Virus record (IMG/VR): IMGVR_UViG_3300021255_002129
Strand: one strand, 5' to 3'
DNA from: a virus
Taxonomy: Duplodnaviria; Heunggongvirae; Uroviricota; Caudoviricetes
Length of the DNA: 64,000 nucleotides
Every line of letters starts with the position of its first letter. Positions within the stretch are counted from its first letter, which is position 1. Below the pieces are notes generated by a model. It did not search any database. It worked only from the letters and a program-made list of their open reading frames with translations, and was not told the DNA's origin. Positions 38,299-61,640 of this stretch are shown in pieces. The translations under genes and the position numbers were made by a program.

Positions 38299-38369
38299 AA
38301 TATCCAGCCTCCTTTTGAATCTTCTATTTATAAATAAAAACTATCTTTTGTATATTTATTATTTTTACC

Positions 38370-38407
38370 CAAAAAAAAGAAAGCTACAACTAAATATGTT
38401 GTAGCTT
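38370..38407 (-). terminator. rho-independent terminator (minus strand) followed by a conserved TTTTGGGTAAA element
   Basis: AAGCTACAAC...GTTGTAGCTT hairpin, then a T-tract on the minus strand. Confidence 0.6.
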
Positions 38408-38704
38408 ATAGAACACTTTATTTGTTATATTAATTATTTCTTCGCCATAAGTAGCAATAATATCTGCAATTACTTCTTCCTGTTCAAGAGAAAGATAGAC
38501 ATTATAGGAGAACATTGCGGCATGCACTAACTCATGACAAATAACTTTCTTTAGCATACTTCCTTCTAAATTCTCTGCTAAATATATGGTTTTAGTATCT
38601 TTATCGCACATTCCTAATGTACGAACTCCATCCTCGCGGATAAGTATCTCATCTCAAGGATGAACGAATTTCACTCTCCATCCTATTCCATTAATTGTAA
38701 TCAT
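38390..38704 (-). CDS. ImmA/IrrE-family (DUF955) zinc metallopeptidase-like protein, one in-frame TGA
   Basis: HEXXH motif 'ICHELVHAAM' with upstream 'GWRVKFVHPW(TGA)DEI...IYLAENL'. It is extended 5' of track ORF 38390..38611 through the TGA to the ATG at 38702-38704. Confidence 0.55.
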
Positions 38705-39291
38705 TATTTAATTTTTTCTGCTAAAGTGCTTAATTTTTGAGAAAGAATTTCTTTTTCTTCTGGAGTGGCATCATTAATCATTTCCATCATATCTCCGCTT
38801 AATTCTTTCATATATTTTTCTAATTCCATCATTTGTTTTTCTTTTCCTTCATGCATTTCTTTAGATTCCATATACATACGTCTTGAATTGCCACTTCTAC
38901 CTTCGCGGTAATCTCTTAATTCTCTAGGATATACATTTCCATAGTCACGCATTCCGCGGCTATATGCATCTCCATAGTAATAAGGTTCAGGATAATAATA
39001 TCTACCATCTGAATATCCTCTTCCATTACCACGAGCGTTATTTCCCACAGAACCACTTGACATATCTCCACCATTATAATACATAACTGGATAATACATC
39101 ATATTACGAGTTGGTTCTTTTTCTTTATCTTCCATTGCTTCTACGACAGTGCAATAATAAATAGTTTCCTCCAAGTCTTTAATCATATCAACAACTTCGC
39201 CTAATTCTTCAGCATTAGTTTTTGATAAATCTCCCATTTGGCTTTCTACACAAGACATTAGTCTTTCTTTCATTGCTTTTAATCTCTCCAT
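38704..39291 (-). CDS. hypothetical Tyr/Gly/Arg-rich intrinsically disordered protein
   Basis: Low-complexity core 'YYPVMYYNGGDMSSG...RGNGRGYSDGRYYYPEPYYYGDAYSRGMRDYG' flanked by helical Met/Glu/Lys-rich ends. Confidence 0.45.
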   Translation of the reverse strand: MERLKAMKERLMSCVESQMGDLSKTNAEELGEVVDMIKDLEETIYYCTVVEAMEDKEKEPTRNMMYYPVMYYNGGDMSSGSVGNNARGNGRGYSDGRYYYPEPYYYGDAYSRGMRDYGNVYPRELRDYREGRSGNSRRMYMESKEMHEGKEKQMMELEKYMKELSGDMMEMINDATPEEKEILSQKLSTLAEKIK

Positions 39292-39292
39292 A

Positions 39293-39718: not shown

Positions 39719-39745
39719 ATTTTTATTACCTCCATTTAATTAATT

Positions 39746-40579: not shown

Positions 40580-40619
40580 ACAAACTCTCCTTTCCTATAA
40601 ATATATTATATCTATATCT

Positions 40620-40871
40620 TTAAAGCTTAAAGGTATCCCTAAAAGCTTTAAATTCTTTATCATAATCCATACCACGCTCTTTAGCAATATTACGAACAAC
40701 TTTTTCTATTTCTTCTGTTTTTCCTTCTTTGATTAGATTTGCTAAATTTTGCATGATTGGATTTCCTTGACTTGCAGCTTCATTAACCATGTTTGAAACA
40801 AGAGCTGATGGATCTTGACTCTTAAAGCTACTAATCAATCTAAACATATCTTGAGGACTTCTAATAAGCAT
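40620..40871 (-). CDS. hypothetical protein (83 aa)
   Basis: ORF overlapping the upstream gene's end by 11 nt. Confidence 0.4.
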   Translation of the reverse strand: MLIRSPQDMFRLISSFKSQDPSALVSNMVNEAASQGNPIMQNLANLIKEGKTEEIEKVVRNIAKERGMDYDKEFKAFRDTFKL

Positions 40872-41274: not shown

Positions 41275-41480
41275 AATTTTAAATACTCCTTTCTATTATA
41301 TCCTTTCCTTTCACTAATATCTGAGTTTTTATCAAAACTTATTTTTCAAGTTTGACTAAGTTTTTATTAAAACTTTTAAATTTAGCAGGTAGTAAATTTT
41401 ATTTACAACTTACGATTAAAAGTTTATCATTACAAACAAAAAAATGCTCAGAAAGTGGAAATTAATCCAAATTCTGAGCA

Positions 41481-41520
41481 TAAAAAAAGAGGATAACTTA
41501 ATTTTATAAGTTATCCTCTT
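41481..41520 (-). terminator. rho-independent terminator (minus strand)
   Basis: Perfect 13-bp stem AGAGGATAACTTA/TAAGTTATCCTCT flanked by an A/T tract. Confidence 0.65.
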
Positions 41521-41797
41521 TACTAACTTGTATAGTATAATCTATAATACTATTTTCATCTGTATTTTGAGCAAAATATATTGAAGTAATTTCAGTATTT
41601 CCTATTTCATAAATACCTGTTTTACCAATTTCATATTCTTTGCCATTTATATAAATGTAATTTCTTACATCAGTTTGTACACCAATATGACTCACATAGT
41701 CGATCGGATAGGCGGCTGCCGCAACTATTTTATCATATAATTCATCATTTGCAGTGAAAGGCCCGATTAATTGACCTGTATATCCATTAACGCCCAT
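41504..41797 (-). CDS. small tail-fibre-like protein (97 aa)
   Basis: C-terminal 'EIGKTGIYEIGNTEITSIYF' motif is shared with the 43085..43789 protein. Confidence 0.45.
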   Translation of the reverse strand: MGVNGYTGQLIGPFTANDELYDKIVAAAAYPIDYVSHIGVQTDVRNYIYINGKEYEIGKTGIYEIGNTEITSIYFAQNTDENSIIDYTIQVSKEDNL

Positions 41798-43071: not shown

Positions 43072-43084
43072 GTGCTTACCCTCC

Positions 43085-43789: not shown

Positions 43790-43808
43790 TCTAAACACTC
43801 CTTTTTAT

Positions 43809-45860: not shown

Positions 45861-48800
45861 TTTCATTACTCTGCATACCTACCTTTCATAATTTCACAAT
45901 GATAATCAATCAAGGCTTCAACAGGACAAAGTAAATCATCATTATTTGTAAATAGCCATCATTGGTCATTATGCCAAATAAATCTACTATTTGCTTCATC
46001 TATTAATCTTTGTAATATTAAAGCATATTGTCTATCTATTTCTTTATTTAATACTAAATGATAATAATCATCATAAGCTCTATCTAAACTAATAGTATAT
46101 GTTGAACCTAATTTTGACAATTGATCTGGATCTGTGGAAGCAGTCGCCTCATCAGGCCACTGTTCACGAGATTTCATTATATAAACTCCATCTCTATATT
46201 GTCTATCACCTGTTGGTATTAAATCTTCTTCATGATTTAAATTATTTTGAGTTTCATTTTCCTCATCTTTAGTTCCATCAATATATAATGAGCCTGTCCA
46301 TACATCTCCACCAACTTGTTCAATTCATTCTTCGTCTACTATTAATCCACCATCATCATCAATAGGTTGCAATACTCTATCAAATAATAATGTATAACTT
46401 GATGAAGGATGTTCTATATTATCTTGATTAACTGATGCAGTGTATTGTTCTGGTCATTGTTCTTTAGATTTAATGCTATATCATCCAGCAAATTGGTCAA
46501 TAGCTTCTAAATAATCATCTGCAAGAGTATAAACCCCATTTTTAATTAATTGAGATGTATCACTTACATATTTATCTAATATTATATTTGTTTCAATATA
46601 TTTATTATCGGGTAATGTTTCTCTTTCTTGCTCTGCGGCAGTAGCAGGTTCAAGATGGATACCAGCGAAATATAATCCCTCAATAGCAGAGCCCTCCGCA
46701 TCAAGAGCTAAAGTATGTGTTGGTCCAATAACATGTCTTTCAAAATCTGTATCTGCAGACTCTTTAACAAATATTACAGTACCTGGTTCAGCTTCAATTT
46801 TTACTCCATCTAAAGATAACATTATTTGTTGATAATTTGAATATTTTTCAAAATATTTATTCCATATATTTTGATAGATTGAATCATTTGGTTTAAATGC
46901 TCCTCATTTTTGTCCAACTCTTCTATAAAAACTACTAGTTTGAAATACTTTACTAGTATCTTCAGTTTGTTGTAAATTAATATGGTACTCTAAATTAACT
47001 TGAGTATCAACAGGAAAAAATAATGAAGTAATTTCTACGTTCTCACCTTTTAATTCATATATACCTTCTGGATTTATTATAATAGGTTTATTATTAACAT
47101 AAACTAAATAACCTAAGATTGCGGAATCTGGATTTTCTTTATCATCACCAAGATCATCTACTACACAGGGGCCATCTTCACCCTCTTTAATTAGGTATGG
47201 GTCACTTTCAAATTCTAATCTTAAGAAATCTAAATTTTGAATTGCAATTTTATAATTTTCTTTTGCATATTTTTCATATTTCTTTTGAATTAAACTTAAA
47301 GCCTCTGTATTTGCAGGTATTATTTCATTATATTGTCCTACATAATCACTAGCAAATTGTAATAATGTATCATAAGTTCCTAATGGAGAAATATTATATT
47401 TATCATAATTTTTAATTGTTGCCGCATCCACTTCATAAGCAGTTGCTGTAAATGAATATATTCTTCTACCTAATGTTGAATTAGGTGTTAAATTAATATC
47501 CATAATTTTAACAAGTATATTTCCTTCAGTAGCTGACCTGAATAATCTAACTTTATTTGCATATAAGAAATCCATAACTTTTTCTCTGAATTCACGCTCA
47601 TAAGTCCAATCGTTAAAATCATCTATTCTTACATTTTTATCTTTATTAAATTCAATATAATTATCTAGGCTGTCTCTAAACATTTCTTCTTTTGATGTTA
47701 TTAGATGTGATGGATCCATTAAATGAGTTATCGTACCTCCAATAGGAAATTGTCTATATTCAACATAGCCATTTCTTTTAATATATGGATATTTACTTCC
47801 TATTGTATCTGTGCGGGATTCACTTACTGTACGTTTGAACGAACTTACTGATGGATCAAATCTAATATTAAGTTGCCCATCTCCGCCAGTTAAATACATA
47901 TCATCAAATAACATCATGAATGGTTCATCCTCTGCGTGAATTGCGATACCTCTATTTCCAACACTACTTCTTCTTTGTGCTATATATTTATAATACACTC
48001 CACTTTTAATAGTATAGTCATATCAAGTATAATTTAATTTACTATTTTCTTCAAAAGACTCTGTATGAACATCTTCTCATATTGTAAAATTACTTTCACT
48101 TGATGTTCTTCTAATAGTTATATTACCAATAAAAGAATCGTCATCATCTTTGCTTTTAACATTAAGTACAATACAACCATTAATATTATCAAGAGTAGCA
48201 GTTAATGTAGCTTCAAGTTTATCAGCGTTTTCTTGGACTACCATAAATTCATATGTATCTTTTTCAGTATACATATTAGCAGTTTCATATTCAAAAGTAA
48301 AATAATAGCTTTCTCCTTCATTAAAAGCATATTCAAAAGTATAGTTAAATTCATTAATATTAAAATAAATATTTGAATATATTACACCACTATCTGATAA
48401 TAATTGATTATTTATATCGTATAATTTTATTTGATAACTTTTTAATGTATCTGTTTCCGCGGAATCCGCATATGTTAATCTACCAACCACATCTACATTA
48501 TTTAATGACCATAACGTTGTGTCTGCGGAAATATCGAATCCTGAAACACTAAGACTAGGTACACTAATCCCTCTAACTAAACATACTGTTGATCATTCAG
48601 AGAAGTTTGATAAATTTGCAGCAAGCCAGCTATCGATCGCTTGAGGCGTGTTTAAAGATACATCGGCGGCGCCTGCCGCAGTAAATCTAATTTGAACTTT
48701 GTAATATTGATTTATTTGAAAACCTTCTTCAATATCACTAGTTTTTATCTCAATATAATATTTATTATCTGATACTCTTGTTAAATCAGTTTTAATGTCA

Positions 48801-49024
48801 GTTAACATAATTTCACAAGGATATTTGCTTTTATCTAATACAGATAAATTGGTATTTTGATTAACAACTGTTACTTGTGCATTTTTTATATCATTTAAAC
48901 TATTATATAAAGAAATAGAGAAATATACTCTACAAGTATTTTTTTGTATATCACTACTTCCTACTAAAAACGCAGGCATGTAGGTATCCACAACTGGTGG
49001 ATATAAATTAATATTAACTGCCAT
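45861..49024 (-). CDS. very large tail/baseplate structural protein (~1054 aa, Dit-like position) with at least five in-frame TGA
   Basis: Track ORFs 48593..49024, 48077..48490, 46904..47998, 46481..46822 and 45959..46177 all share a frame and are each bounded by TGA. Gaps read without TAA/TAG. An internal repeat 'KSKEQWPEQYTAS'/'KSREQWPDEATAS' is present. Confidence 0.5.
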
Positions 49025-49508: not shown

Positions 49509-49589
49509 ATATCTCCTTCCTATATAATTCTCATAATTCTATCTAATAATATATAAAAGTTACAGAAGAAAGATTAGATAAATTAGACC

Positions 49590-49630
49590 AAAATAAAAAA
49601 GATACTTTGCTTTATAAAGCAAAGTATCTA
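49590..49630 (-). terminator. rho-independent terminator (minus strand)
   Basis: GATACTTTGC...GCAAAGTATC hairpin with a flanking A/T tract. Confidence 0.6.
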
Positions 49631-49648: not shown

Positions 49649-49867
49649 TTAATTATTACTTTCTTCTAATGCTTCTAACCTTTCAATTATATTTTTTAAT
49701 TGTTCAGCAATACTACCATCTCTATCTACATTAATATCTCCAATAGTATCTTGTAAATCTTTACCATTTTTCATATCAACATCTTTAGCATCAACTGAAA
49801 TAGTATAAGTTTCTTCACTAACTGAACCGTCTGGATTTTTTATCTTAACAGTTTTAATTTTATCCAT
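49649..49867 (-). CDS. 72-aa protein consisting of the receptor-binding-protein N-terminal anchor module plus a short coiled coil
   Basis: 'MDKIKTVKIKNPDGSVSEETYTI' matches the N-termini of the 52379..54190 and 54889..57066 products. Confidence 0.4.
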   Translation of the reverse strand: MDKIKTVKIKNPDGSVSEETYTISVDAKDVDMKNGKDLQDTIGDINVDRDGSIAEQLKNIIERLEALEESNN

Positions 49868-49943
49868 AAATTAAACCTCCTTTTACGTCTTTGTTTCTAA
49901 TACTATGTGAAAAAGGATTAATTAAGATGGGTTATTTTTGACC

Positions 49944-49976
49944 AAAATAAAAAAGAGGAGTATTTAGTTACTCCTC
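49944..49976 (-). terminator. rho-independent terminator after the holin gene
   Basis: GAGGAGTA-TTTAGT-TACTCCTC with a flanking A/T tract. Confidence 0.6.
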
Positions 49977-50393
49977 ATCATCTTTAACTTCCCAAGTAAT
50001 GACTTCAGTGTCTGAACTAATATTTGCTAAATCTACAACTCCTTGAATTGCTTTCTTTCCTTGTGCCACAATAGTTGCAGTGACTACACCTAATACTGCA
50101 ACACTTGATAATGTATTAAGTAATTCGCTTGATAATAATATTACTCCAAATGCACTTGTAATCATTTTATTAATAAATGGTAACATAGTAAATGCAACAG
50201 CAACAAACACTGAGCATACATAAAACGCTAATATTTTTGTAATACCTTTAATCATTTTCTTTCCATTAAAAGTTTCTTTTCCTGACCAAATATTAATTAA
50301 TGTTCCAGTTACAATATTAACAATAGCAAGAATAGCTAATGCAATACCTAACCATCCCATTATTTGTAAAGTTTTTAAAATTGCTTCTACCAT
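49968..50393 (-). CDS. holin (multi-TM)
   Basis: 141 aa with three or four predicted TM helices and a charged C-terminus, located next to the endolysin. Confidence 0.6.
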   Translation of the reverse strand: MVEAILKTLQIMGWLGIALAILAIVNIVTGTLINIWSGKETFNGKKMIKGITKILAFYVCSVFVAVAFTMLPFINKMITSAFGVILLSSELLNTLSSVAVLGVVTATIVAQGKKAIQGVVDLANISSDTEVITWEVKDDEE

Positions 50394-50767
50394 AATATCA
50401 TGCGGCGGTCGTCGGTCTTAGAACTTTTAGTCTTGCTCTTACGCATGCCTGATCGGCTCCCGCGCCTCCTTTCCTTATTGTTTCCGCACTCTCCACCTTT
50501 AGTGCAATTATAACCAAAAAGTGGAATATTACTTTTGTAATAACCTATTAAATATTTTTCTAACCTAACAGCTTGCTCTTGTGTCAATCCACTAGATATT
50601 ACAATGTGTTTAATGTTTTTTCAGCCATATTTTTTAATAGGTTTATAGACTAACTGGCCTTTATAGCCTCGCCCATTTTTCCATCTAGACTCAGGTTTTT
50701 GGCCAGTTAATCCAATATATCGTTTCCCATTAGGGAAAATTAATTCATATACACAATAATTATGCAT
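50387..50767 (-). CDS. GIY-YIG homing-endonuclease-like protein inserted between endolysin and holin; at least one in-frame TGA
   Basis: 'VYELIFPNGKRYIGLTGQKPESRWKNGRGY' is a GIY-YIG motif and '...LEKYLIGYYKS...FGYNCTKGG' is I-TevI-like. The ATG overlaps the endolysin TAA, and the TAG stop overlaps the holin start. The C-terminal basic tail is encoded by an anomalously GC-rich patch (~50400-50480). Confidence 0.55.
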
Positions 50768-51945
50768 TATAGTTTTTGTAGACTTGATGCTGGGTAGAAT
50801 CCTGTAGTTCCAGATCCATTTCCAACTTGATATGGATAAGGTCTTCCATCCCAAATTCTTAAAATTTGTCTAGTCCATCCAATACCATATGCAGTATTAC
50901 TTCCACCATAAGAACTTCCATTACCAGTTCCTATAATCTTAACTTTATCTCCTACTTGTAATCCAGTTGGTTGTGGTGTAGGTTGTGGAGCAGGTTCATC
51001 ATATTTTTTAATTGAACTTTGATCCATCCATCCTAAGTCTCCTGTTGTATTATATGGATGCGCGCTTCCTGGGTTTTTTCTTGTAATATAAGTAACTTTA
51101 TTACTTACACTTCCTGCAGGACTAGCTGCATTAGAATTAACATATAGAGGTCCATTGATTATTACATGGTCTCCAATATTAAATGCATCACTTGGACCTG
51201 GAGTAGGTGTAGGGGCAGGACTTCCGCCATCTATTAATTTTTGAACGTCATCTGGTAAATATATAAAACATCTAAAGTAATAATTACTTGAACATCCCCA
51301 TCTACCATTATTATTTGTTCTAATTTGGTTCCAGAATATTGTGCTTGAGCCCCATCCAGATTCAGATGTATAAACTTGATTATTACTATCTACTCTTTCA
51401 ACGATTGCTACATGACCAGCGCCTGAGTTTCCCCAGCACATAATTGCTCCACGTTTTGGGGTTGAACCAGTTTTAAGCCCCGCTGTCTCCGCTCTTTCTT
51501 TAAAATTAATAGCATTGCAATTTAAAGTTTTATAAGTACATCCGCTTGTATCTCTTGCAATATTTATAATTTCATTAAATCTACCACTTGCATAACCTAC
51601 GCAGTTTGCTAATGCATTTGCTGGTGCATATAATGGATTACCTTTGATACAAGTATTCCATCCACCAGAACCTGTAACTATAAAGTTTTTGTTATTAGCA
51701 GGTCTGCTAATTCTCATTATAAAACCCGCAGCACCTATACCTTCAGGTTCATCTGCGTTAAGGTTTTCAATTTCATAATGCTCATCCGCATCATTTAATT
51801 CTTCAGGTGTGTCTGTGTTAAATAAATATTGAACATTTTCGTCATCAATATCATCTCTTAAAAAAGCTTTAGCAACCATAGTTTGCACTTCTGTAGGTGC
51901 CATTTCCACTCTTTTAATTCTTTCTTCACTTGATAATTGTGCCAT
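50767..51945 (-). CDS. endolysin: CHAP-domain peptidoglycan hydrolase with two C-terminal SH3b-like cell-wall-binding domains
   Basis: CHAP catalytic Cys 'ANCVGYASGRF' and His 'GAGHVAIVERVD'. A Pro/Thr linker 'PAPTPTPGP' precedes two SH3b-like repeats ('GDHVIINGPLYV...', 'LQVGDKVKIIGTGNG...'). Confidence 0.8.
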   Translation of the reverse strand: MAQLSSEERIKRVEMAPTEVQTMVAKAFLRDDIDDENVQYLFNTDTPEELNDADEHYEIENLNADEPEGIGAAGFIMRISRPANNKNFIVTGSGGWNTCIKGNPLYAPANALANCVGYASGRFNEIINIARDTSGCTYKTLNCNAINFKERAETAGLKTGSTPKRGAIMCWGNSGAGHVAIVERVDSNNQVYTSESGWGSSTIFWNQIRTNNNGRWGCSSNYYFRCFIYLPDDVQKLIDGGSPAPTPTPGPSDAFNIGDHVIINGPLYVNSNAASPAGSVSNKVTYITRKNPGSAHPYNTTGDLGWMDQSSIKKYDEPAPQPTPQPTGLQVGDKVKIIGTGNGSSYGGSNTAYGIGWTRQILRIWDGRPYPYQVGNGSGTTGFYPASSLQKL

Positions 51946-52029
51946 AGATTTTTACCTCCTTTATATAATTTGTAAAAAATAAAAACAACAATTAAAATAT
52001 TATCTTTCTCTTAATTATTTTTGAAATTT

Positions 52030-52060
52030 TAATTAAAATTATTATATATTTTAGCCCAAA
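52030..52060 (-). promoter_or_regulatory. candidate late promoter element (minus strand GGGCTAAAATATATAAT)
   Basis: One of three near-identical TTTTGGGYWAAAWATAWATAAT elements found just downstream of minus-strand terminators. Confidence 0.3.
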
Positions 52061-52378
52061 AAAAAAGAAGCAAAAACAATTTTACTTTTCCTTTTATTAT
52101 AGTAATTCTAGAATCTAACTTATTTTGTTCTTCTTTCGCATATTTTATCTTAATAATAAGTTTTTCTGTAGATATAGCTGTAGTATTAACTCTATCAAAT
52201 GTTTTTTAAGTCCTTTACATTGTTTTTTAATCATCAAATTTATGTCTAAAAGTTTTTCTTTCATATTTTGTGACATTCTTTACTCTTTCTTTTTTTATTA
52301 ACTATTATACAAAATATTTATTAGCAATAGTTGGTAAAGTTTTAATAGTTTTTATTTTGCTTCTTTTTTAAATATTAA

Positions 52379-54190
52379 TTAGGATGTTGTTTTTTGTATT
52401 GTAACACTTGCCAAGATATTACCCGATTCTATACTTTCAGCAGACGGAAATCGTTTTCTATATGAAAAAATAGGCACATTCGATGAATCTATACTTATAT
52501 TAGTGTTAACATCATTTGTTAAAGCATTATTTCCTACTTGTGCATATAAATCGTATACGTCTATAGATGAGTCATTACTAAAAGTAATAGTTCTTTTTTT
52601 AACCATTACAAAAGTCCACGTTCTAATATATGAATTGTATTTGTCAATTACTTCAATTGTGTTTGAATTGCGAATTTTTATTGTTGCATCAAAAACTATT
52701 CCATTTCTGATTCTTATTATTGGCGAATTTAAAGTAGTAGAAAGTATAAAACTACATAAATAATAATACGAATTTAAATCAAACGTTTGTCCACTATAAT
52801 ATGGTGTTATTTCAGAATTATTATTTAACTGTAAACAATATGCTGGATCATCATAATTAACTAAATTATTAGTATTATTAAATTTATTATTGGACAAATG
52901 AATATTATCATTAGCTATCATATATCTATAATCACTAGCATGATTAAATCTTATAAAAGCACAATCACCTTTTAAAGCTGAATTAAACTTACTATTTGTA
53001 ATTGAAATATATGCTTGTTTTCTTTCTCCAATATAAATTGCTGAAGTTTCACTATTTTCACTAAATGCATCATAATAATACACACAACAATTTGTTAAAA
53101 AGTAGTTTCCATTATCATTATCAAATTCAAAACCTCTAGCATAAGTATCAGCATAACAATTTGAAAGAACAGCACTCCCTTGTGTAAACAAAAAACCAAT
53201 AGTCGTATTTTTTAAATCATCTGTAGATTGGCTATTATATAAAGCTGTACAATGAATATCATCAAACGTTTGAAAACCACCTGTCATTTTAATACCAATC
53301 TGACATCCATCAATTCTTATATGAACTATTTCATTATCATAAGAGTCAATCTTAATAGCTGTTCCTTGATTACTATCTTTTCTAAAAAAATCACAATATG
53401 ATACTTTTACATCACCACTTGTATAACGTTGGTTAAGAGATAAATACAACCCAAAATCTTCTATATTTTTAAATACTGTTTTTGCTAATTGCACTAGTTG
53501 TCTACCACTGTCTATTACCATACCTTTTGATACATTAGAACAATCAATAATACCGCCTTCAACAAAAATAACATTATTAGCCTTTGTTCTACTATAAGTT
53601 CCTTTAGTATCATCTAAGCCAATTTCAATCAATGTCTCTAGTTTTTCATTAGAAATATTTTTAATTAGTGCATTTTCATCTAGTTTAAGATTTACACCAT
53701 AATTATTAGCTTGATAAACTATAATTTTATTTGTTATTCCATAGTCTCCTTTTGGGAAATAAATTGTCTTTAGAGGGTTCTCATCAATAGCTTTTTGAAT
53801 GGCTTGTATATCATCATGTATTCCATCGCCATAAGCACCATATTGTTTAATATTAATAAAATCTTCAGCAATCAATGTAGCATATTTATCATTGCTTAAT
53901 ACTTCTTGATAATCAGTTTCACTTTTTTCATCAGTTATCTTATATGTAGCTCCACCACCATCATTAATCTCATAATATCCAAGCGTTACTACCATATCTC
54001 CAACTTTTAATTTCGTATCAGCTTTCATGTCTGCAACACTGTTATAATAATAAGGTTTTTTATTCAACTTTAATTGAACAGACTCACCATCACTAGTCGA
54101 TACATTCTGAGCTTCTGCTCCAATAGGAATATAATCAGTAAAAGTGCCATCTTGTTTTTTTATTTTAATTTTCTTAAATAAATCTGCCAT
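52379..54190 (-). CDS. tailspike/receptor-binding protein with pectate-lyase-superfamily (right-handed beta-helix) depolymerase domain
   Basis: 'IKQYGAYGDGIHDDIQAIQKAID' is the hallmark motif of PF12708. The N-terminal anchor 'MADLFKKIKIKKQDGTFTDYIPI' is shared with the other fibre proteins. Confidence 0.7.
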   Translation of the reverse strand: MADLFKKIKIKKQDGTFTDYIPIGAEAQNVSTSDGESVQLKLNKKPYYYNSVADMKADTKLKVGDMVVTLGYYEINDGGGATYKITDEKSETDYQEVLSNDKYATLIAEDFINIKQYGAYGDGIHDDIQAIQKAIDENPLKTIYFPKGDYGITNKIIVYQANNYGVNLKLDENALIKNISNEKLETLIEIGLDDTKGTYSRTKANNVIFVEGGIIDCSNVSKGMVIDSGRQLVQLAKTVFKNIEDFGLYLSLNQRYTSGDVKVSYCDFFRKDSNQGTAIKIDSYDNEIVHIRIDGCQIGIKMTGGFQTFDDIHCTALYNSQSTDDLKNTTIGFLFTQGSAVLSNCYADTYARGFEFDNDNGNYFLTNCCVYYYDAFSENSETSAIYIGERKQAYISITNSKFNSALKGDCAFIRFNHASDYRYMIANDNIHLSNNKFNNTNNLVNYDDPAYCLQLNNNSEITPYYSGQTFDLNSYYYLCSFILSTTLNSPIIRIRNGIVFDATIKIRNSNTIEVIDKYNSYIRTWTFVMVKKRTITFSNDSSIDVYDLYAQVGNNALTNDVNTNISIDSSNVPIFSYRKRFPSAESIESGNILASVTIQKTTS

Positions 54191-54327
54191 AAAGCGCGTC
54201 TCCTTTCATTCTTTTAAATTAAAACTAATGTATAATAAAATTATATATACTATAATTCATTCTTTCTAATTCTATTTAAATATTGATTAAAATAAATGAG
54301 TTGTTTTTGTCCAACCAATGTTTAAAC

Positions 54328-54370
54328 AAAATAAAAAAGACTGCGGCAATCACAGTCTTTTTTATTTTTA
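54328..54370. terminator. bidirectional-looking rho-independent terminator
   Basis: AAGACTG-CGGCAATCA-CAGTCTT with an A-tract 5' and a T-tract 3'. Confidence 0.5.
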
Positions 54371-54392
54371 TATACTTTATTTCAATAGTAAA

Positions 54393-54870
54393 ATTATCTC
54401 TTGCTAAATGCCCATCTTTCTATAACTATATTTACAGCCTCATATAGCGACTTTCTAACACATCTAAAGGAATTTATATTAGCTATATTAGAAAGTGTTG
54501 TAAAAGGGCTATGATTATCTATTGTACTATTCAAATGGTCTAAAACATCATTACAATTTTTATCTACAACAGAACTATCTGCAATTAAGTAGTTCTTATT
54601 ATCATAAAATACATGATATGCTCTAACTTTTATTTTACTTTTAGTTTTTTCTGGATTAGATAATCTAAAAGCTTGTCCACCTTGTGGGTAGCAGCAACTA
54701 TTATATTTCCCTGTACTAAATCATTTACATATTCAAGTCCAGTTTCTAAATCTAAATAGTATGTTCCATTATCTTCTTTATGAATTTTAAGCTTCAGTCG
54801 GAATTATTATTTTATCTCCATTTGATGAAAACAACTTGTCTGTTGAATTAAATAATTTAATCTTAAATTA
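54393..54870 (-). pseudogene. disrupted small gene downstream of the M14 fibre gene (possible fibre-assembly chaperone remnant or -1 frameshift site)
   Basis: Two protein-like minus-strand frames abut at an A6 run (~54640-54660) and there is no clean start (ATG-GAG-ATA-AAA-TAA-TAA). The downstream frame ends with '...VNIVIERWAFSKR*'. Confidence 0.3.
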
Positions 54871-54888
54871 AATAGTTTAAATATAAAA

Positions 54889-57066
54889 TTAGTCAATAAC
54901 ACTAACTTCATTAAATTTATAATCATTCTCACAAATATACTTATTCTTTATAATAACATTTTCAAGTAATGAAACAACTGTTGTTATTGCAATTTTCCTC
55001 ATGTCATCTCTACTTCCTGTATAATCATCACCAGACGTTGTAGCAAGTTCAATTAAAAAACCATGCAAATTCATAACACCACTATACCATTCATCAAAAG
55101 AACCATGAAACTCACCAGTTTTCTTTAAAGTAAAGCAATTTTGGTTATTTGTATATTCTGTTTTTAACCAATCAAAATTAGAACGCATTTGTGAATTTAA
55201 GGCTTTAATGGTAGAATAACCAATATCCAAATCTGATTTAAAGCCACTTGCAAAATATCCAATAACACCACCAGCAGTCAAAGAAGCTGTTGAATGTCTA
55301 TTAATAACTAAGAATATTTTATCTTTGTTGTTACGAATATAGTCACATAATATTTGAGTTTCAATTTCACTTTCAGGATATTGTCCTGAAGAATTGTATT
55401 CATTATCACTATATACCCAATTTGCATTGAAATTTCTATTAATATTCACATTATTTCCATTATTTCTTATATGGTGTTCATAACCATATGGGTTTATTGT
55501 TGGTATTACTTCAAATATGACATTATCAAATAAATTCTTTAAAGCATCATTTGTACCATAATTGTCCAATATGTCTTTAAACATCATATAGTCATCTAAT
55601 GCAATAGTTTCTTCATTACCATGCATTGAACCAACATATAGAATTGTTAATTTTTGTTTTGGTATCTGTTGTAATGCTATATTTTCATTGTGTGAATTAA
55701 TAGTGTATTTTCTTATTTCTAGGTTATCTGTAGTAGTCCCAAGAACTGTTTTAGTAATAAATGATGAATAAGTATTTAGTAACCCATCCCATAAATCATA
55801 TAATGTTGATAATTTATTTGTAGTATAATATGGAACAATTGCCTGATTAAAATTATATTTAGAAAATTGAGAGCAAATTTCTATAATTTTACTTATATTA
55901 TTATTTTCAGGATTAATTATATATTTATCATAGTATAAATTTAATGTCATATGATTTAATGCATTATTTACTCTTTTGGCATTAAAATTTTCAGATGATG
56001 AACCATCATCGATTGAAAATCTAATATAACAATCTTGATTAATGATGAATTTATCTATTCCATATGTTCTATAATCTATTAAATACGATGAATCTTTATC
56101 ACTAAAAGTACAAATATTAAATTGAACATTGCCATCACTACTAATTGATGAACCTTTTAACACTTTAATATAATCAATTGTTCTAAAACGTGATGGGAAT
56201 GTATTATTAATTCCTGTTGATGAAATTTGACCCTGTTCAAAATTTGAATATGATAAATTATGTTTATTATACAAATTATCATTAATATTTTGTATTCTGT
56301 TCTCTATGTCTGTATTTTTTGATTCTTCTAATAAATTTAATGTTATATGAGATAAAGCTGAGTCTACTCTTTCTTCATTAAATGTTTCAGATGAGCTACC
56401 ATCATTAATTGAAAATCTAATATAACAGTTTTGAGAAACAATGTAAATGTTTGTTGAAAATGTTCTATACTCTAACAAAGAGCTTGTATTTTTATCACTA
56501 AAAGTACAAATATTAAATTGAACATTGCCATCTGTTTCAATAGAAGTTCCTTTAAGCACTTTAATATAATCTTTAGTTCTAAATCGTGATGGAAATGTTG
56601 TGTTTATTCCAGAAGAACTTATTTGACCTTGTTCAAATTTTGAATATGATAAATTATACTTATTATACGAATTATCAATAATATTTTGTATTTTTTTATC
56701 GTCTTCATTTAATCTTTCATTAATTTCTTCATAATCGCTACTTGCTTGATAAAGTCCACCATCTACCCAAGTTGTACCATTGTAATAATACCAATGACCA
56801 TCAATAGTTAAAACATAAACTCTTGTTGTATCAGTCATTTTACTTATTGAATTTGCTACTAATGGGCTTCCACTTGCTAAGCTATTTATTTGATTTTGTA
56901 AACTATTGATACTAGAATTAACATTTATAACATTAGCTTTATTATTTAATTCATTAGTCAATGTATTTCCATTAACATCGACATGGTCACTATCAACAGC
57001 TAATGGAATACTATCACTATATGAACCATCTTTATTTTCTAATTTAACATATTTTAATTTATCCAT
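54889..57066 (-). CDS. tail fibre with internal duplicated domain and C-terminal M14 zinc-carboxypeptidase-like domain
   Basis: Shared N-terminal anchor 'MDKLKYVKLENKDGSYSDSIPL'. Two ~120-aa repeats are ~70% identical ('NLSYSKFEQGQISSSGINTTFPSRFRT...' and 'NLSYSNFEQGQISSTGINNTFPSRFRT...'). M14 motifs 'SMHGNEET' (HxxE), 'NPYG', 'NRNF' and 'INRHS' are present. Confidence 0.7.
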   Translation of the reverse strand: MDKLKYVKLENKDGSYSDSIPLAVDSDHVDVNGNTLTNELNNKANVINVNSSINSLQNQINSLASGSPLVANSISKMTDTTRVYVLTIDGHWYYYNGTTWVDGGLYQASSDYEEINERLNEDDKKIQNIIDNSYNKYNLSYSKFEQGQISSSGINTTFPSRFRTKDYIKVLKGTSIETDGNVQFNICTFSDKNTSSLLEYRTFSTNIYIVSQNCYIRFSINDGSSSETFNEERVDSALSHITLNLLEESKNTDIENRIQNINDNLYNKHNLSYSNFEQGQISSTGINNTFPSRFRTIDYIKVLKGSSISSDGNVQFNICTFSDKDSSYLIDYRTYGIDKFIINQDCYIRFSIDDGSSSENFNAKRVNNALNHMTLNLYYDKYIINPENNNISKIIEICSQFSKYNFNQAIVPYYTTNKLSTLYDLWDGLLNTYSSFITKTVLGTTTDNLEIRKYTINSHNENIALQQIPKQKLTILYVGSMHGNEETIALDDYMMFKDILDNYGTNDALKNLFDNVIFEVIPTINPYGYEHHIRNNGNNVNINRNFNANWVYSDNEYNSSGQYPESEIETQILCDYIRNNKDKIFLVINRHSTASLTAGGVIGYFASGFKSDLDIGYSTIKALNSQMRSNFDWLKTEYTNNQNCFTLKKTGEFHGSFDEWYSGVMNLHGFLIELATTSGDDYTGSRDDMRKIAITTVVSLLENVIIKNKYICENDYKFNEVSVID

Positions 57067-57121
57067 TAAAATCTTCTCTCCTTTCTTAAGATTGAGATTA
57101 TATATCTCATTTCTAAATCTA

Positions 57122-57163
57122 TATCAAAAGAAGGGACAAATAATTATCTTATTTTGTCCCTTC
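57122..57163 (-). terminator. rho-independent terminator (minus strand)
   Basis: Perfect 11-bp stem GAAGGGACAAA/TTTGTCCCTTC flanked by an A/T tract. Confidence 0.6.
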
Positions 57164-57406: not shown

Positions 57407-57425
57407 ATCTTTTTACTCCTTTAAA

Positions 57426-60400
57426 CTAATAATCTTTAACCGCAACAAGAATTCCATTTGTAAAACGTAATCCAATAACACTATTATCTGTTTTTCTAAT
57501 AATAATTTCATTTGTTGCTTGGCCAGTCTCTCCAGAAGAAGTATGTAAATTTCCAATATTATACAATCCATTTCCATTCATTTGAATAGCTCCTCTAACA
57601 TTTAAACCAGATACTTTTGGATGATTAGTTTCTATTCCCATTTCAAGATAATATTCTCCCTTATGAATACTAATACTTCCACCTGTAATAGTAGCTCCTC
57701 CAACAGTACCTCCATTAATACTAGAACCACTAATATTTCCACTAAACTGTCCATTACTAGCATGAAGAGTTCCATTACTTTCAATTCTAAAACGAGTACC
57801 ATAATTAATTAAATCAGCAGTCCCTTGTGACCATCCACCATTATCTATTCTAATATTTTTAAAGTGGGCGTTTCCTGCTGCATTAATCTCTCAATTTGGT
57901 CCTTTAAGAGTTCCATTTGCAGAGATATGTGTATTTCCATTATTGCTTTGTAATTCAGTTCCATTAATAGTTCATCCACCTATTTGACCGCTAGACGAAT
58001 ATAAAGCCCCATCTTTATCAACAGCAAATTTATTGTTAATAGCTAAATTTAAGTTATCTCTATTAGTTCCATTAATAGTTCTACTAAATAATCCATTATT
58101 ACTTGAAAATCTAATATTTGCAGAACTACTTTTTGTTCCCGTATAAATTGAATCATCATCAATATTAAACCCAGCTAAAGTACCTCCGCCTTTTGCAGTT
58201 AGATGTCCATCTTTATCAACTTTAAAATTACCATTTCCTCATTCAATTAATGGCGTAGTTAAATCAATTAACATTCCTTGATTATTTTTATTTCCAACGC
58301 CATAATTTAAAGGTTTTCCACTATCATCATAATTTTTTCAATAAGCGCTACTATATAACATAGCTTTTTCTGCGGCGGGGTCTAAAATAATTTGACCTGG
58401 GCCATGTTTACCAAATATTGCAGATCCATCTTCTGCATTTAAGAACATTGTACGTTCACCAAAATTATATCCAAACATACCAATATCTTTTTTATTTTTA
58501 CCAGCTTCTTTAACACTACCCATTAACATACCAGTAAAACTATTATCTGCTTCTTTTTGACCTGCACCAACTTGTGGAGCTAATATAACTCCATTACCAT
58601 TTTTATCTATGCTAACACTATTACCATCTCATCCGTTAATAGCTGCATTTCCATATTTATTTAATAATAAATGAATTGGTATATGAATTCTAGCAACTTC
58701 ATTTGCACTCTTATCTATTATGATACATTCAAGAGCATTAGTTACACACTCACCATCAAAATCATCTATTGGTTTATATGATTTTGTATTCCTTGCTGCG
58801 GGAATATCACCTCTTGAATATTCTTTTAAGAATTCTTTATTTATCCAACTTCTATTAACTGAGTCATATATTCTTCCTCGAATATTCCAATCATAATTAA
58901 CTCCATTAGTTTTAGTTAATACGCTGATATCTTCAGTGATATTATTTATTACTTTCGTTACTTTTAATTCAAAAGGCTTTGAATTATCATATTGCGGCTT
59001 GCGGCCATCTGCACTATAAGTCGCATATCTAAATCCTGTGTCTTCAACTAATGAAACTCCATATCCGCTTACCGCAGTTGCAGTTATAACAGGCATTGTA
59101 GCATAATATTCAATATTATCATAAGTAATTATAACTTTAACAATATTAGCAGGTGAATTAACACCTTTATATCCGCTATAACTAAATGTTCCATTATCTG
59201 TAACACCTAAACTAGTTTCATCATAAACATTGCTTGTGTATTTATTTTGTAAAATAGTTCATTTAACATTTGCAGTTTTTCCTTCAGTAGTATTACCACT
59301 TGAACTACCATCAAATATTTTTTCTCCACTATGCCATAATTGAGCATTAAACCATTTATTATTTTGTCTTGGAGTATAATTAATATTTCCATTTAATATC
59401 ATTGGATATCCAAAACCAGTGTTTTGAGTATTAGGAACTATTTTACATACGAATTCAGTTCCATTAGTTCCTGGTTCTCCTTCTTTAACAAAAGTAAAAT
59501 CAGTTTCCGCAACTAAATTCATATCTTTATAATCAACCGTTAATTTAATTTTATTATTGTTCTTTTTAATATCATACTTATCTCTAATTGTATATTGAAG
59601 ATACATTTCTCCTTCAACTGTTTTATAATCATCTTGAACAATCCAATCATAGCTATCAGGAACTTTTAGCATCGTATCTTCAAGAGGAACTGTTCAACTA
59701 AACTTACATTTATCTATAATATCATCTGCTAAAGCATTACCTAAATTATCATAAACTGTAAAACTTAATGGTAATATAACTTGAGGATTATCTAAACTAT
59801 CACTTACAGGTGATATACCAGCCTCATCGTATTTAAAAGTTTGTGTTCCATTATTTATAATTAAAGTATAAGCATCTTTTTTATCTAAATCATTTCTAAT
59901 AACAATAGAAGCAGTTCCAATATATATTCCATTGTGGTAAACTGAACATTTATAAGTACTAAAATTAGTTATTGTATTCACTTGTAAATGATGTATTTTT
60001 CTACCTTCTACTCTCATTATTTTATCATATCTATTTATAATTGTCAAGTATTGATTTAATTGTCCTTGACTTGCTGCGGCCATAGCTCTTTCTGCAGCAA
60101 TGTCAGCTTTAAGTTGCGTATAACCGACAACTGCATTGTTATATTCTGTATTATCTTCAGTGGTTTCCGTCAAAGCATAGAAATTATTATTATTATCTAT
60201 TTCAACTCATTGATAAGTATATTCATTACTAGTTGACTCTTGACCATTAATTTTACAAGTTAATGTAGGATTTCCAATATCATAATAGAATTGTTCGCCC
60301 TTATCGCTTTCAATACTAATCTCATAATTAGATGAATAATTAGTAACAGTAATAACCCTACTTAATTGAATATTATTATAAATAACAACACATTTATATT

Positions 60401-61559
60401 TAGTTTCTTTTGCTTCGCTATCGCTTTTCTTTACAATATATTTAAAATCTGCGGGAATCCATTCTACTACAGGTGCAGTTCCAGCAGATGCGTTTTTAAT
60501 TACGTTCTTTTGATTTAAACATTTCCATCCTTGTCCGCCATAAGCATTAAAATCTTCACTTAAACTAGTTACACCATTGTTTTCAACAAACCAATAATAT
60601 GGTAATCTTTGACTATCAGGATTAATATATTTACCTTTAACTCTTACTTGTGCCATTAATGTTCTAGTTGCACTAGGTAAATCATTTTCATCAAAATAAA
60701 CTCCTTGTGGAGTAACAAAACTTAAACTACATGACTCTAGGTCTACTGCACTTAAAGCCTGACTTCCGCATATTTCAAAATCTTTAATAAATATATCATT
60801 AAGTTTTGTTTCATCTTGATTTGGAAAATCATAACAGAATAGAGATATTTTATTTATATATTGAAAATTAACACCATCTATATCAAATATTCCAACTTGT
60901 CTTTTGAAATTAGGTATTTTATATGGATTACCTTCGAATTGATTAACATCAAGAGCATAATTTCTAGTAACTAATTCTTCACTAGCATTATCTTTAAAAA
61001 CCATTTCATATAAAATTCCGTAGTTTCCTCTAAATTGTTGTTCAGTAGGTAAGCTAGTTTTTATTGTAGCTGCTAAAAGTATTGATGTAGATGACTTTAT
61101 ATATTCGTTTATACTTTTTAGGTTAAGTCTTAAATTATTAGCAGAACTGCTATTTCTATCATATATTACATATTCATTAGTAGTTTTATATGAACATAAT
61201 TCATATTGGTTATTACTTTCTACACAGTTATTACCAATTATTTCAAAAGCCTCTTCACCTTCTGCGGCAACCGCATAATTCTTTCCTAATCGACTTACCG
61301 CACCTAGAATAGTTTTATCCCTACTCATATCATTATTAGGAATTAAAACATAGACTTCAGAGCCATTCATATAACTGATTTCAGAACTACCTGAATATGC
61401 ATAAAAATTACTATCTTGATATTGGACTTTGTATTTACCAATAGTTGGGTCTTCACAGTTAATAATCTTAGCTTGAACTGTCTTATCATATCCAGCATTT
61501 TTAACTCTTTGGTTTACAATAGTTTCAATAGCATCAAGTATTTGGTTTTCATATTTCAC
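57426..61559 (-). CDS. giant tail-tip structural protein (~1377 aa) with a C-terminal Gly/Asn-rich fibre-like repeat region; at least five in-frame TGA
   Basis: Six track ORFs (60207..61559, 59694..60173, 59259..59672, 58629..59096, 58338..58529, 57426..57641) share one frame and are each separated by a TGA. The gaps were translated by hand without TAA/TAG. Start is 'MKYENQILDAIE' after AAGGAG; stop is TAG at 57426. Confidence 0.5.
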
Positions 61560-61599
61560 TCCTTGTCATCTCCTTTTCTCTCTAAATTTCTTATTTTTT

Positions 61600-61640
61600 C
61601 TTCAATATTCTATTAGAAATATTATTTATATTTACCCAAA
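61600..61640 (-). promoter_or_regulatory. candidate late promoter element (minus strand GGGTAAATATAAATAAT) directly after the tape-measure terminator
   Basis: TATAAATA-like element in a conserved context that recurs at 52030-52060 and 38345-38370. Confidence 0.3.

What the first reader, a model, noticed from the sequence alone, without database searches (positions are those of the whole stretch)
38345..61640. Recurrent terminator-plus-TTTTGGGYWAAAWATAWATAAT cassettes on the minus strand (candidate late promoters with a T4-like TATAAATA core)
After the tape-measure gene (~61600-61673), after the tailspike-region terminator (~52030-52060) and after the ImmA-like gene (~38345-38407), a hairpin and T-tract are followed immediately by near-identical sequence: GGGTAAATATAAATAAT, GGGCTAAAATATATAAT and GGGTAAAAATAATAAATATA. 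In addition, TATAAATA- or TATATAAT-like elements sit 5-25 nt upstream of the RBS of several late genes (38298, 41274, 49508, 51945, 54190, 57066). None has a -35 box, unlike the early promoters. This is the pattern expected for late promoters recognised by a phage-encoded sigma or activator.
Basis: seen in the sequence. Interest (0 to 1): 0.5.

Follow-up and report, generated by a model that had tools for sequence, protein, structure and literature searches.

The report
Late-strand terminators with a shared tail
The recurring "cassettes" are ordinary hairpin transcription terminators in the tail and lysis gene cluster of a rumen phage; they share an unusually constant T-rich tail ending in GG, and the A/T-rich stretch after them, read as a T4-like late promoter, is no more alike than A/T-only spacer DNA gives by chance.

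Summary
The three sites exist. They belong to a family of six minus-strand sites, each a hairpin followed by TTTT(A/T)TTTTG(G/T)(G/T): 61646, 54336, 52066, 49952, 49598 and 38378. The repeat finder recovers them independently, and the tail pattern occurs 6 times against 1.1 expected.

What recurs beyond chance is the terminator and its tail. At seven orthologous junctions after the tape-measure gene, the stems differ but TTTTTTATTTTGG is invariant.

The supposed promoter half (GGGTAAATATAAATAAT and similar) is no more alike than three random A/T-only intergenic 20-mers (P=0.25). TATAAATA-like elements at up to one mismatch are as common before early genes.

In relatives the same tail sits 6-30 nt before a ribosome-binding site, and a T9 terminator lies 16 nt before the tape-measure RBS, so read-through must occur.

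Canonical sigma-A promoters exist on the late strand. No sigma factor, RNA polymerase or YonO was found in the sequence examined.

A different motif, T-run-TATAGT-ATTAGAA, follows several terminators. It is the better candidate for a promoter without a -35 box.

Overall the finding is mostly ordinary, and the late-promoter reading is only partly supported.

The parts
61635..61673 (-). Terminator after the tape-measure gene. Stem-loop at 61673-61648; the TAA stop of the gene (61667-61665) lies inside the stem. Tail TTTTTTATTTTGGG at 61648-61635.
   Evidence: Hairpin centroid -14.9 kcal/mol, z -2.8. The tail is invariant in 7 orthologues that carry 5 different stems.
61621..61634 (-).
   Evidence: A TATAAT or AATAAT hexamer is kept in window, L020, L021 and L056. 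Its similarity to the other two sites is not above the A/T-only background.
54325..54365 (-). Strong two-way terminator with tail TTTTTTATTTTGTT. It lies in the 698-nt non-coding spacer upstream of the 603-aa fibre gene.
   Evidence: Hairpin -20.8 kcal/mol, z -7.4. No ORF in the spacer.
52041..52095 (-). Site 2: weak A/U-rich hairpin, then T9 GGG, then CTAAAATATATAAT.
   Evidence: Hairpin -9.7 kcal/mol, z -1.55, 16 of 200 shuffles as good. Lies in a 433-nt spacer holding only a 43-aa ORF.
49941..49976 (-). Terminator after the 141-aa membrane (holin-like) gene, with tail TTTTTTATTTTGGT. It sits exactly at a mosaic junction.
   Evidence: Fold -13.0 kcal/mol, z -2.7. The homology block shared with L003-L017 ends at 49983. 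The blocks shared with L020 and L021 begin at 49960 and 49955.
49587..49629 (-). Terminator after the 72-aa truncated fibre paralogue, with tail TTTTTTATTTTGGT.
   Evidence: Hairpin -17.5 kcal/mol, z -6.1. The orthologue L021:18429 has a different stem but the same tail and downstream sequence.
38366..38407 (-). Site 3: terminator after the ImmA-like metallopeptidase gene (38390-38704), with tail T8 GGG.
   Evidence: Hairpin -12.7 kcal/mol, z -3.2. Orthologues L023, L024 and L025 keep T-tract+GG with changed stems.
57109..57163 (-). Hairpin at 57163-57126 with a short T4 tract, running straight into the motif TTTTGATATAGATTTAGAAAT (57129-57109). This is 43 nt upstream of the 725-aa fibre gene.
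   Evidence: Hairpin -18.1 kcal/mol, z -4.6. Hit of 13.3 bits with a weight matrix built from relatives only. Orthologues L020:14502 and L021:14691.
49893..49913 (-). Motif TTTTCACATAGTATTAGAAAC, the candidate promoter without a -35 box upstream of the 72-aa gene.
   Evidence: Weight-matrix hit of 14.2 bits.
49539..49559 (-). Motif CTTTTATATATTATTAGATAG, upstream of the 149-aa gene.
   Evidence: Best weight-matrix hit in the window, 21.8 bits. Conserved in L021:18470, L047:18063 and L048:18111.
38321..38340 (-). Weaker copy of the motif, TTTTTATTTATAAATAGAAG. It contains the only exact TATAAATA seen in the intergenic stretches after these terminator sites and lies upstream of the 128-aa gene.
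   Evidence: TATA(A/T)(A/T)TAGAA is kept at the same distance from the RBS in L023, L024 and L025.
41407..41521 (-). Twin terminators whose tail is of another kind (TTTTTTTATGCTCA...). The second stem is ATGCTCAGAA...TTCTGAGCAT.
   Evidence: (-18.3 and -20.2 kcal/mol).
36764..36797 (.). Two-way terminator at the point where the two gene clusters converge. On the minus strand its tail is TTTTTTTTTATGCTCA.
   Evidence: -19.5 kcal/mol, z -7.3.
60019..60047 (-). Canonical sigma-A-type promoter sequence TTGACA-N14-TGATAAAAT inside the 1377-aa late gene.
   Evidence: In L021:11513 both boxes are identical while the spacer has 5 substitutions.

Best explanation
The cassettes are Rho-independent terminators that punctuate the tail, fibre and lysis part of the structural-gene cluster. 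The phage is a ~136-kb rumen phage related to SPbeta that reads TGA as a sense codon.

Each unit is a stem-loop followed by a tail typical of this lineage: T6-A-T4 (or T8-9) ending in GG. The A/T-rich DNA after it is the spacer and 5' leader of the next gene. It is not a conserved T4-type late promoter.

The terminators most likely act as leaky attenuators or insulators. Host RNA polymerase starts at canonical sigma-A promoters on this strand and partly reads through. Some spacers may add an extra promoter without a -35 box, of the form T-run-TATAGT-ATTAGAA.

The units also mark the borders of exchangeable modules (fibre paralogues and the lysis block). This partly explains why they recur.

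Shown: the hairpins, the tails, their conservation, the chance level of the A/T-rich half, and the cases with no room for a promoter.

Inferred: termination itself, leakiness, and the role of the GG. One possibility from general knowledge is that the GG gives a T-then-G step like that of the consensus elemental pause.
For: - Hairpins fold at -12.7 to -20.8 kcal/mol, z -2.7 to -7.4, each followed by 8-11 T.
- Tail pattern: 6 matches against 1.1 expected, 0 of 100 shuffles.
- Seven orthologous junctions after the tape-measure gene carry 5 unrelated stems but an invariant TTTTTTATTTTGG. The same holds at 38378 and 49598.
- Across the family, GG follows the T-tract in 32 of 322 non-redundant late-strand terminators. 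On the other strand it is 9 of 259, and 6 of those read GGCG.
- In L054, L056, L061, L067, L073, L074 and L077 the RBS follows the GG within about 6-30 nt.
- In the same phage a T9 terminator lies 16 nt before the tape-measure RBS, and another lies 10 nt before the RBS after the tube gene. Read-through is therefore required.
- The A/T-rich half is at chance level.
- Sigma-A promoters occur on the late strand.
- No sigma factor or polymerase was found (YonO tblastn).
- The 49952 unit sits at a homology breakpoint on both sides.
- The genes after three units are paralogues.
Against: - No transcript data exist, so neither termination nor read-through is shown.
- Nine or ten consecutive strong terminators would starve the distal genes unless there is re-initiation or antitermination. 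That argues for promoters in at least some spacers.
- An ordinary terminator does not need an invariant GG 11-13 nt after the stem, and it remains unexplained.
- A TATAAT-like hexamer at a fixed 9-14 nt after the GGG is kept in several orthologues of site 1.
- One relative, L107, has a full sigma-A promoter in that same spacer.
- Only about 90 kb of the ~136-kb genome type was examined for regulators.
Confidence: 0.6

Rival explanations
1. These are terminator-promoter cassettes. Each terminator ends one late transcription unit, and the spacer after it carries a promoter without a -35 box that restarts transcription. The promoter could be the first reader's TATAAATA/TATATAAT element or, more likely, T-run-TATAGT-ATTAGAA. 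It would be read either by sigma-A holoenzyme helped by a phage activator or by a phage-modified polymerase.
For: - On the early strand, terminators run straight into sigma-A promoters (4399, 11701 and 32748), so this architecture is used in this genome.
- A weight matrix built only from relatives puts 3 of its 4 best window hits in late intergenic regions, 30-50 nt before start codons.
- In the 48 loci then held there were 18 hits on the late strand against 3 on the other, most of them before an RBS.
- Motif search by expectation-maximisation (EM) on 54 non-redundant late spacers scores 336 against 214-256 in shuffles. Its core T-A-T-A-W-T looks like a -10 box.
- TATAWWTAGAA is kept at a fixed distance from the RBS in L023, L024 and L025.
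- Exact TATAAATA or TATATAAT is enriched, 3 of 10 against 0.33 expected.
- L107 carries a true sigma-A promoter in the spacer after the tape-measure gene.
Against: - The family-wide motif carries little information. It hits early promoters and coding DNA alike: 51 of 60 hits lie outside intergenic DNA.
- Many copies of the specific motif precede paralogous fibre genes, so they may be inherited leaders rather than independent sites.
- It is absent from sites 1 and 2 of the finding.
- No activator or sigma factor was found.
- Some terminators are followed by an RBS with no room for a promoter.
Confidence: 0.25
2. These are module-junction cassettes of the PeSL kind. The conserved tail and leader serve mainly as short stretches of homology at which fibre, lysis and accessory modules are swapped between related phages. 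Their recurrence would then reflect duplication and recombination rather than a shared regulatory signal.
For: - Homology blocks shared with different relatives end or begin at the 49952 hairpin.
- The lysis block 49983-51946 is shared at 71-80% identity with at least 16 otherwise non-syntenic contigs.
- The order of fibre modules differs between the window, L020 and L021, and a terminator lies at each border.
- Orthologous sites have unrelated stems joined to identical tails and leaders.
- The 725-aa, 603-aa and 72-aa genes share an N-terminal domain.
Against: - The exact shared stretch is only about 13 nt, which is short for homologous recombination.
- The junction after the tape-measure gene is collinear in close relatives, with no breakpoint.
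- Breakpoints at gene borders are expected anyway.
- This reading is compatible with the other two rather than exclusive of them.
Confidence: 0.1
3. Hairpin plus tail is itself the recognition signal of a phage-encoded polymerase. This could be a hairpin promoter as in N4, or a start at GGG as in T7-like phages. It could also be a signal that couples termination to re-initiation.
For: The GG is invariant and lies beyond the usual release point. GGG is a common start for phage polymerases (general knowledge).
Against: - The stems are not conserved in sequence.
- No phage polymerase was found in the window or in the parts of relatives examined.
- The same tail occurs before an RBS only 6-10 nt away.
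Confidence: 0.05

Closest known systems
Rho-independent (intrinsic) terminators inside phage late operons, acting as attenuators
   Same: - A G+C-containing stem-loop followed directly by a run of T on the coding strand.
- Placed at gene ends.
- The stems change by replacement or compensation while the structure is kept.
   Different: - The tail is unusually uniform (T6-A-T4-GG) across a whole phage lineage.
- The GG lies beyond the usual release point.
- The density is high, about 10 in 27 kb.
PeSL composite terminator/promoter motifs of T4-like phages (PMC2839356, PMC4122927)
   Same: - Short stem-loop-containing intergenic cassettes repeated many times.
- Found at the borders of variable genes.
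- At least one lies at a replacement junction between related genomes.
   Different: - PeSLs carry a recognisable early sigma-70 promoter, and none is seen here.
- These lie in the late (tail, fibre, lysis) region of a siphovirus-type phage of low-G+C Gram-positive bacteria.
- A role in recombination was examined at only a few junctions here.
T4 late promoters (TATAAATA at -10, read by gp55/gp33 with the sliding clamp)
   Same: A/T-rich, with no -35 box, upstream of late genes. One exact TATAAATA is present, at 38330.
   Different: - The element is not conserved in sequence or position among the sites.
- Its frequency at one mismatch equals that before early genes.
- No gp55-like sigma factor was found.
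SPbeta late transcription by the single-chain polymerase YonO (PMC5467207)
   Same: - The phage is related to SPbeta: YorL-type DNA polymerase at 39% identity, and YomU/YomV tail proteins.
- SPbeta also has annotated stem-loops inside its late operon, including one after the tape-measure gene.
   Different: - No YonO homologue was detected by tblastn.
- Relatives start the late operon with a canonical sigma-A promoter rather than the unknown YonO promoter.
TGA-recoded 'Agate' phages of animal guts (Borges et al. preprint 10.1101/2021.08.26.457843)
   Same: - Genome size (~127 kb for Agate, 136 kb here) and ruminant gut source.
[quoted passage not shown]
   Different: Clade membership was not tested by phylogeny. 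That paper does not deal with promoters ('promoter' occurs 0 times in it).

Membership tests
Rho-independent terminator | Stable stem-loop, more stable than shuffled sequence | tested here: met
   Five of the six tail-bearing sites have z -2.7 to -7.4. The 52066 site fails (z -1.55).
Rho-independent terminator | Run of T directly after the stem on the transcribed strand | tested here: met
   8-11 T within 11 nt at all six sites.
Rho-independent terminator | Structure kept while sequence changes in relatives | tested here: met
   5 different stems at one orthologous junction. Searches show the same at two other sites.
Rho-independent terminator | RNA 3' ends in the T-tract in vivo or in vitro | not testable with these tools
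   No transcript data are available.
T4-type late promoter | TATAAATA at -10 with a conserved position relative to the start site | tested here: not met
   Exact TATAAATA occurs at one site only (38330). The title consensus matches 1 site. The shared A/T-rich half is at chance level.
T4-type late promoter | Phage-encoded late sigma factor (gp55-like) or co-activator | tested here: not met
   Pfam and PHROGs scans of 50 window proteins and 8 proteins of relative L132 found none. Roughly a third of the genome type was not examined.
Sigma-A (sigma-70) promoter | TTGACA-like box, 17 +/- 1 nt, TATAAT-like box in the spacer after the terminator | tested here: not met
   none in the late intergenic regions. 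There are 12 on the early strand and one inside a late gene.
PeSL-type cassette | Stem-loop joined to a recognisable promoter | tested here: inconclusive
   The stem-loop is present. The only promoter-like element is one without a -35 box, at a variable distance.
PeSL-type cassette | Located at indel or replacement junctions between related genomes | tested here: inconclusive
   Met at 49952. Not met at 61646, which is collinear. Not surveyed systematically.
YonO-dependent late operon (SPbeta) | YonO homologue encoded upstream of the late operon | tested here: not met
   tblastn with SPbeta YonO against the window and 211 loci found nothing at E<=0.01. There is no ORF above 600 aa in the 6.8 kb upstream of the operon in L132. 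YonO is very divergent, so a weak homologue could be missed.

The most novel reading that the evidence does not exclude
TGA-recoded rumen phages related to SPbeta might use their own class of late promoter that needs no -35 box. It would be T-run-TATAGT-ATTAGAA placed directly after each terminator. Possibly the invariant T6-A-T4-GG tail is also part of a signal that couples termination to re-initiation. Such a signal would be read by a factor not yet identified.
Probability: 0.15. Interest if true: 0.5.

Novelty: new member of a known kind. Interest (0 to 1): 0.25.

Why it matters
If the main reading holds, nothing new is needed. The tail and lysis genes of this phage are expressed by host polymerase reading through a string of attenuating terminators, and temporal control could instead come from TGA recoding.

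The practical value is for annotation. The window must be read with TGA as a sense codon, and A/T-rich 'TATA' elements in 27%-G+C DNA should not be called promoters without a background test.

Two points could repay experiments in a cultured relative: the very uniform terminator tail, and the motif that follows several terminators. They would give a handle on how long recoded late operons are transcribed, and on how fibre modules are exchanged.

Tried and rejected
- Close DNA relatives among deposited phages: none.
- tRNA and Rfam scans of the window: nothing found.
- T-tract+GG read as a -35 box (TTGGGT or TTGGTC): no consistent -10 box at 16-18 nt, or at any other fixed distance, in the six sites. 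This was checked by reading the sequences.
- GGGTAA read as a sigma-B-type -10 box, and AGGAGA/TTTNTTT read as a SPO1 middle promoter: the upstream boxes would fall in stems that are not conserved, so both were rejected (recalled consensus compared).
- TTAGA read as a SPO1-late-type -35 box: no GATATT-like box downstream.
- YonO: no hit in the window or in any of 211 loci. SPbeta's own stem-loops show no similar tail.
- k-mer enrichment in the late spacers recovered only the RBS, T-runs and TTTTGG. ATAGA (9 against 2.8 expected) does not survive correction for multiple testing.
- The family-wide EM motif is real but generic. It does not separate late from early promoters.
- Looking up the left end of the window (GyrB fragment) in public contigs failed.
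- Host search: relatives of the tail tube protein are binned with Bacilli, Erysipelotrichaceae, Clostridia and Mollicutes MAGs. This indicates a low-G+C Gram-positive host but nothing more precise.

Full report
**What is in the window.**
- G+C is 25-34%.
- Genes run on the plus strand from 1 to about 36.7 kb: gyrase, NAD-dependent ligase, DnaB, primase-like protein, PolIII alpha, NrdD/NrdG, dUTPase-like protein, glycosyltransferases.
- Genes run on the minus strand from 64 kb down to 36.8 kb: tape measure, tail and fibre proteins, a CHAP lysin, membrane proteins, an ImmA-like peptidase.
- PolIII alpha is 39% identical to YorL of SPbeta.
- The exact source contig is a 136,410-bp scaffold from a sheep-rumen metagenome. 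Its upstream genes carry the Pfam families YomU_Tube and YomV_2nd.
- This is therefore an uncultured phage related to SPbeta.

**Genetic code.**
- Many 'gaps' between table-11 ORFs on the minus strand are coding sequence interrupted by in-frame TGA.
- Read through, they give genes of 1377 aa (57426-61559, 8 TGA), 1052 aa (45866-49024), 685 aa, and a tape-measure protein of 2625 aa.
- Replication genes have no TGA and use TGG.
Only about 1.3 kb of the late region is truly intergenic.

**The observation.**
- The three quoted sequences are present.
- The repeat finder independently returns them as family D4. It also returns wider families D2 and D5, which add three more minus-strand sites.
- All six sites have a stem-loop followed by TTTT(A/T)TTTTG(G/T)(G/T): 61646, 54336, 52066, 49952, 49598 and 38378.
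- The pattern TTTTWTTTTGKK occurs 6 times against 1.11 expected, and none of 100 shuffles reached 6.
- The consensus written in the title matches only one site at up to 3 mismatches.
- Hairpins fold at -12.7 to -20.8 kcal/mol (z -2.7 to -7.4). The exception is 52066, at -9.7 kcal/mol and z -1.55.
- Further late-strand terminators carry other tails: 57163-57126, 41521-41407 (twin) and 36797-36764.

**Is the 'promoter half' more than chance?**
- The 20 nt after TTTTGGG at the three sites have a mean pairwise alignment score of 9.0.
- Triples of random intergenic 20-mers reach this in 0.6% of trials. Triples of A/T-only intergenic 20-mers reach it in 25%. The resemblance is low-complexity A/T richness.
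- Exact TATAAATA or TATATAAT occurs in the 60 nt upstream of 3 of 10 late genes (0.33 expected, P=0.002).
- At one mismatch, which is what the finding actually lists, it is 7 of 10 against 4.25 expected (P=0.05).
- Upstream of early genes it is 13 of 16, where it is simply the sigma-A -10 box.
- Several listed elements abut the RBS. A -10 box there would put the transcript start inside the RBS.

**What is conserved in relatives.**
- Searches with five proteins from this phage or close relatives, including the tail tube, brought in 211 loci from IMG/VR.
- At the junction after the tape-measure gene, seven orthologues carry five unrelated stems. TTTTTTATTTTGG is invariant in all of them.
- The same holds at 38378 and at 49598.
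- In a non-redundant set of late-strand terminators across the family, GG follows the T-tract in 32 of 322. On the other strand it is 9 of 259, and 6 of those read GGCG.
- In many relatives this tail is followed within about 6-30 nt by the RBS of the tape-measure gene.
- In the same phage, a T9 terminator lies 16 nt before the tape-measure RBS. Another lies 10 nt before the RBS of the gene after the tube gene.
- No promoter fits in those spaces. The tail therefore belongs to the terminator, and essential downstream genes must be expressed by read-through.

**Promoters on the two strands.**
- The early strand has twelve near-identical sigma-A promoters, TTGAYW-N14-TG(A/T)TATAAT. Several start within the T-tract of the preceding terminator.
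- No such promoter lies in a late intergenic region.
- The late strand is not free of them, however. In relatives the structural operon begins with TTGACA-17-TGnTAnAAT and has a second one after the terminase gene. Both positions are conserved in dozens of contigs.
- In the window, TTGACA-N14-TGATAAAAT lies inside the 1377-aa gene (60047-60019). Both boxes are unchanged in L021 while the spacer between them differs at 5 positions.
- No sigma factor, activator or polymerase was recognised in 50 window proteins or in 8 proteins around the operon start of a relative.
- SPbeta's YonO polymerase transcribes its late operon from a promoter whose sequence is unknown (PMC5467207). It has no detectable homologue in the window or in any locus.

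**A better promoter candidate.**
- In the closest relatives, several late terminators run straight into TTTTTATATAGTATTAGAA or TTTTTTATATCTTATTAGATAA.
- A weight matrix built only from those relatives gives four hits in the 128 kb of both window strands.
- Three of the four lie in late intergenic regions 30-50 nt before start codons: 49559, 49913 and 57129.
- In the loci then held there were 18 hits on the late strand against 3 on the other.
- A weaker form, TATA(A/T)(A/T)TAGAA, is kept at a fixed distance from the RBS downstream of the 38378 terminator in L023, L024 and L025.
- Motif search by expectation-maximisation (EM) on 54 non-redundant spacers gives T-run-(TG)n-TATAWT-...AGA, scoring 336 against 214-256 in shuffles.
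- That general motif is only about 7 bits. It also hits early promoters and coding DNA.
- Several copies of the specific motif precede paralogous fibre genes: the 725-aa, 603-aa and 72-aa proteins share an N-terminal domain. Part of the recurrence is therefore inheritance by duplication.
- This element remains a candidate only.

**Module borders.**
- The lysis block 49983-51946 is shared at 71-80% identity with at least 16 contigs that are otherwise not syntenic.
- Blocks shared with L020 and L021 begin at 49960 and 49955. The 49976-49955 hairpin therefore sits exactly between two blocks of different ancestry.
- The order of fibre modules differs among the window, L020 and L021, and a terminator lies at each border.
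- This resembles the PeSL cassettes of T4-like phages (PMC2839356, PMC4122927). It was not tested systematically here.

**Conclusion.**
- The recurrent units are intrinsic terminators with a lineage-typical tail. They most likely act as leaky attenuators and as borders of modules.
- The T4-like late-promoter reading rests on A/T-rich similarity that is at chance level, so it is only partly supported.
- Some spacers may hold promoters without a -35 box. If so, the best candidate is a different motif.
- The invariant GG is unexplained. It may give the T-then-G step of the consensus elemental pause, which is an inference from general knowledge.
- Transcript end mapping would settle all of this.

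Noticed in passing
window 36800-64000 (-) and 32824-36762 (+): TGA is read as a sense codon, probably Trp, in tail, fibre and glycosyltransferase genes. Examples are 57426-61559 with 8 TGA and 33771-34565 with 7. Replication genes have none and use TGG. There is no tRNA in the window. This fits the TGA-recoded 'Agate' phages described in 10.1101/2021.08.26.457843.
   Followed up: partly
window + strand: 4036, 6918, 7127, 8502, 9532, 11705, 13819, 17223, 19870, 27398, 32768: A set of near-identical strong sigma-A promoters, TTGAYW-N14-TG(A/T)TATAAT, lies before early genes. Several start inside the T-tract of the preceding terminator. The one at 32768 drives the TGA-rich glycosyltransferase genes.
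   Followed up: partly
window 60047-60019 (-): A canonical promoter sequence, TTGACA-N14-TGATAAAAT, lies inside the 1377-aa tail gene. In relative L021:11513 both boxes are unchanged while the spacer has 5 substitutions, which suggests a working internal promoter.
   Followed up: partly
window 54889-57066, 52379-54190, 49649-49867 (-): Three paralogous fibre genes share an N-terminal domain (MDKxKxVKxxxxDGS...). The 72-aa copy is a truncated remnant. The 725-aa gene also contains an internal repeat with 396-nt spacing between copies (55935-56234 and 56331-56630, 76% identity) and a zinc carboxypeptidase (M14) domain.
   Followed up: partly
window 54191-54888 and 51946-52378: Two long stretches without ORFs (698 and 433 nt) flank the 603-aa pectate-lyase-like fibre gene. 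They are probably decayed gene remnants left by module exchange.
   Followed up: no
window 41521-41407 and 36797-36764 (-): Terminators at 41488 and 36769 share a different tail, T7-9 ATGCTCA. At 41444 this tail forms the 5' arm of a second strong hairpin (ATGCTCAGAA...TTCTGAGCAT), which gives a twin terminator.
   Followed up: no
relatives L195 (488-5109), L209 (276-4328), L199, L198, L172, L142, upstream of the late operon: Arrays of 3-7 strong sigma-A promoters (TTGACAAA...TGGTATAAT) lie in the stretch of each contig that precedes the structural operon. Most are followed within about 10 nt by a G+C-rich palindromic stretch. They look like batteries of small structured RNAs. Their function is unknown, and they are not in the window.
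   Followed up: no
L132 6630-6830 (relative): The first ORF of the structural operon has no obvious start codon in its reading frame. The ATG after the RBS runs into TAG after five more codons, and the long frame is offset from it. This could be a frameshift, TAG read-through or a sequencing error.
   Followed up: no
window 31295-32743 (+) and 36805-37380 (-): The phage encodes an SPFH/flotillin-like protein of 482 aa. At the very end of the late cluster it encodes a DUF285 (BspA-type leucine-rich repeat) protein.
   Followed up: no
window 113-1303 (+): The GyrB-like ORF covers only the second half of GyrB (transducer, Toprim and C-terminal domains). The ATPase half must lie upstream of the window or be encoded separately.
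   Followed up: no
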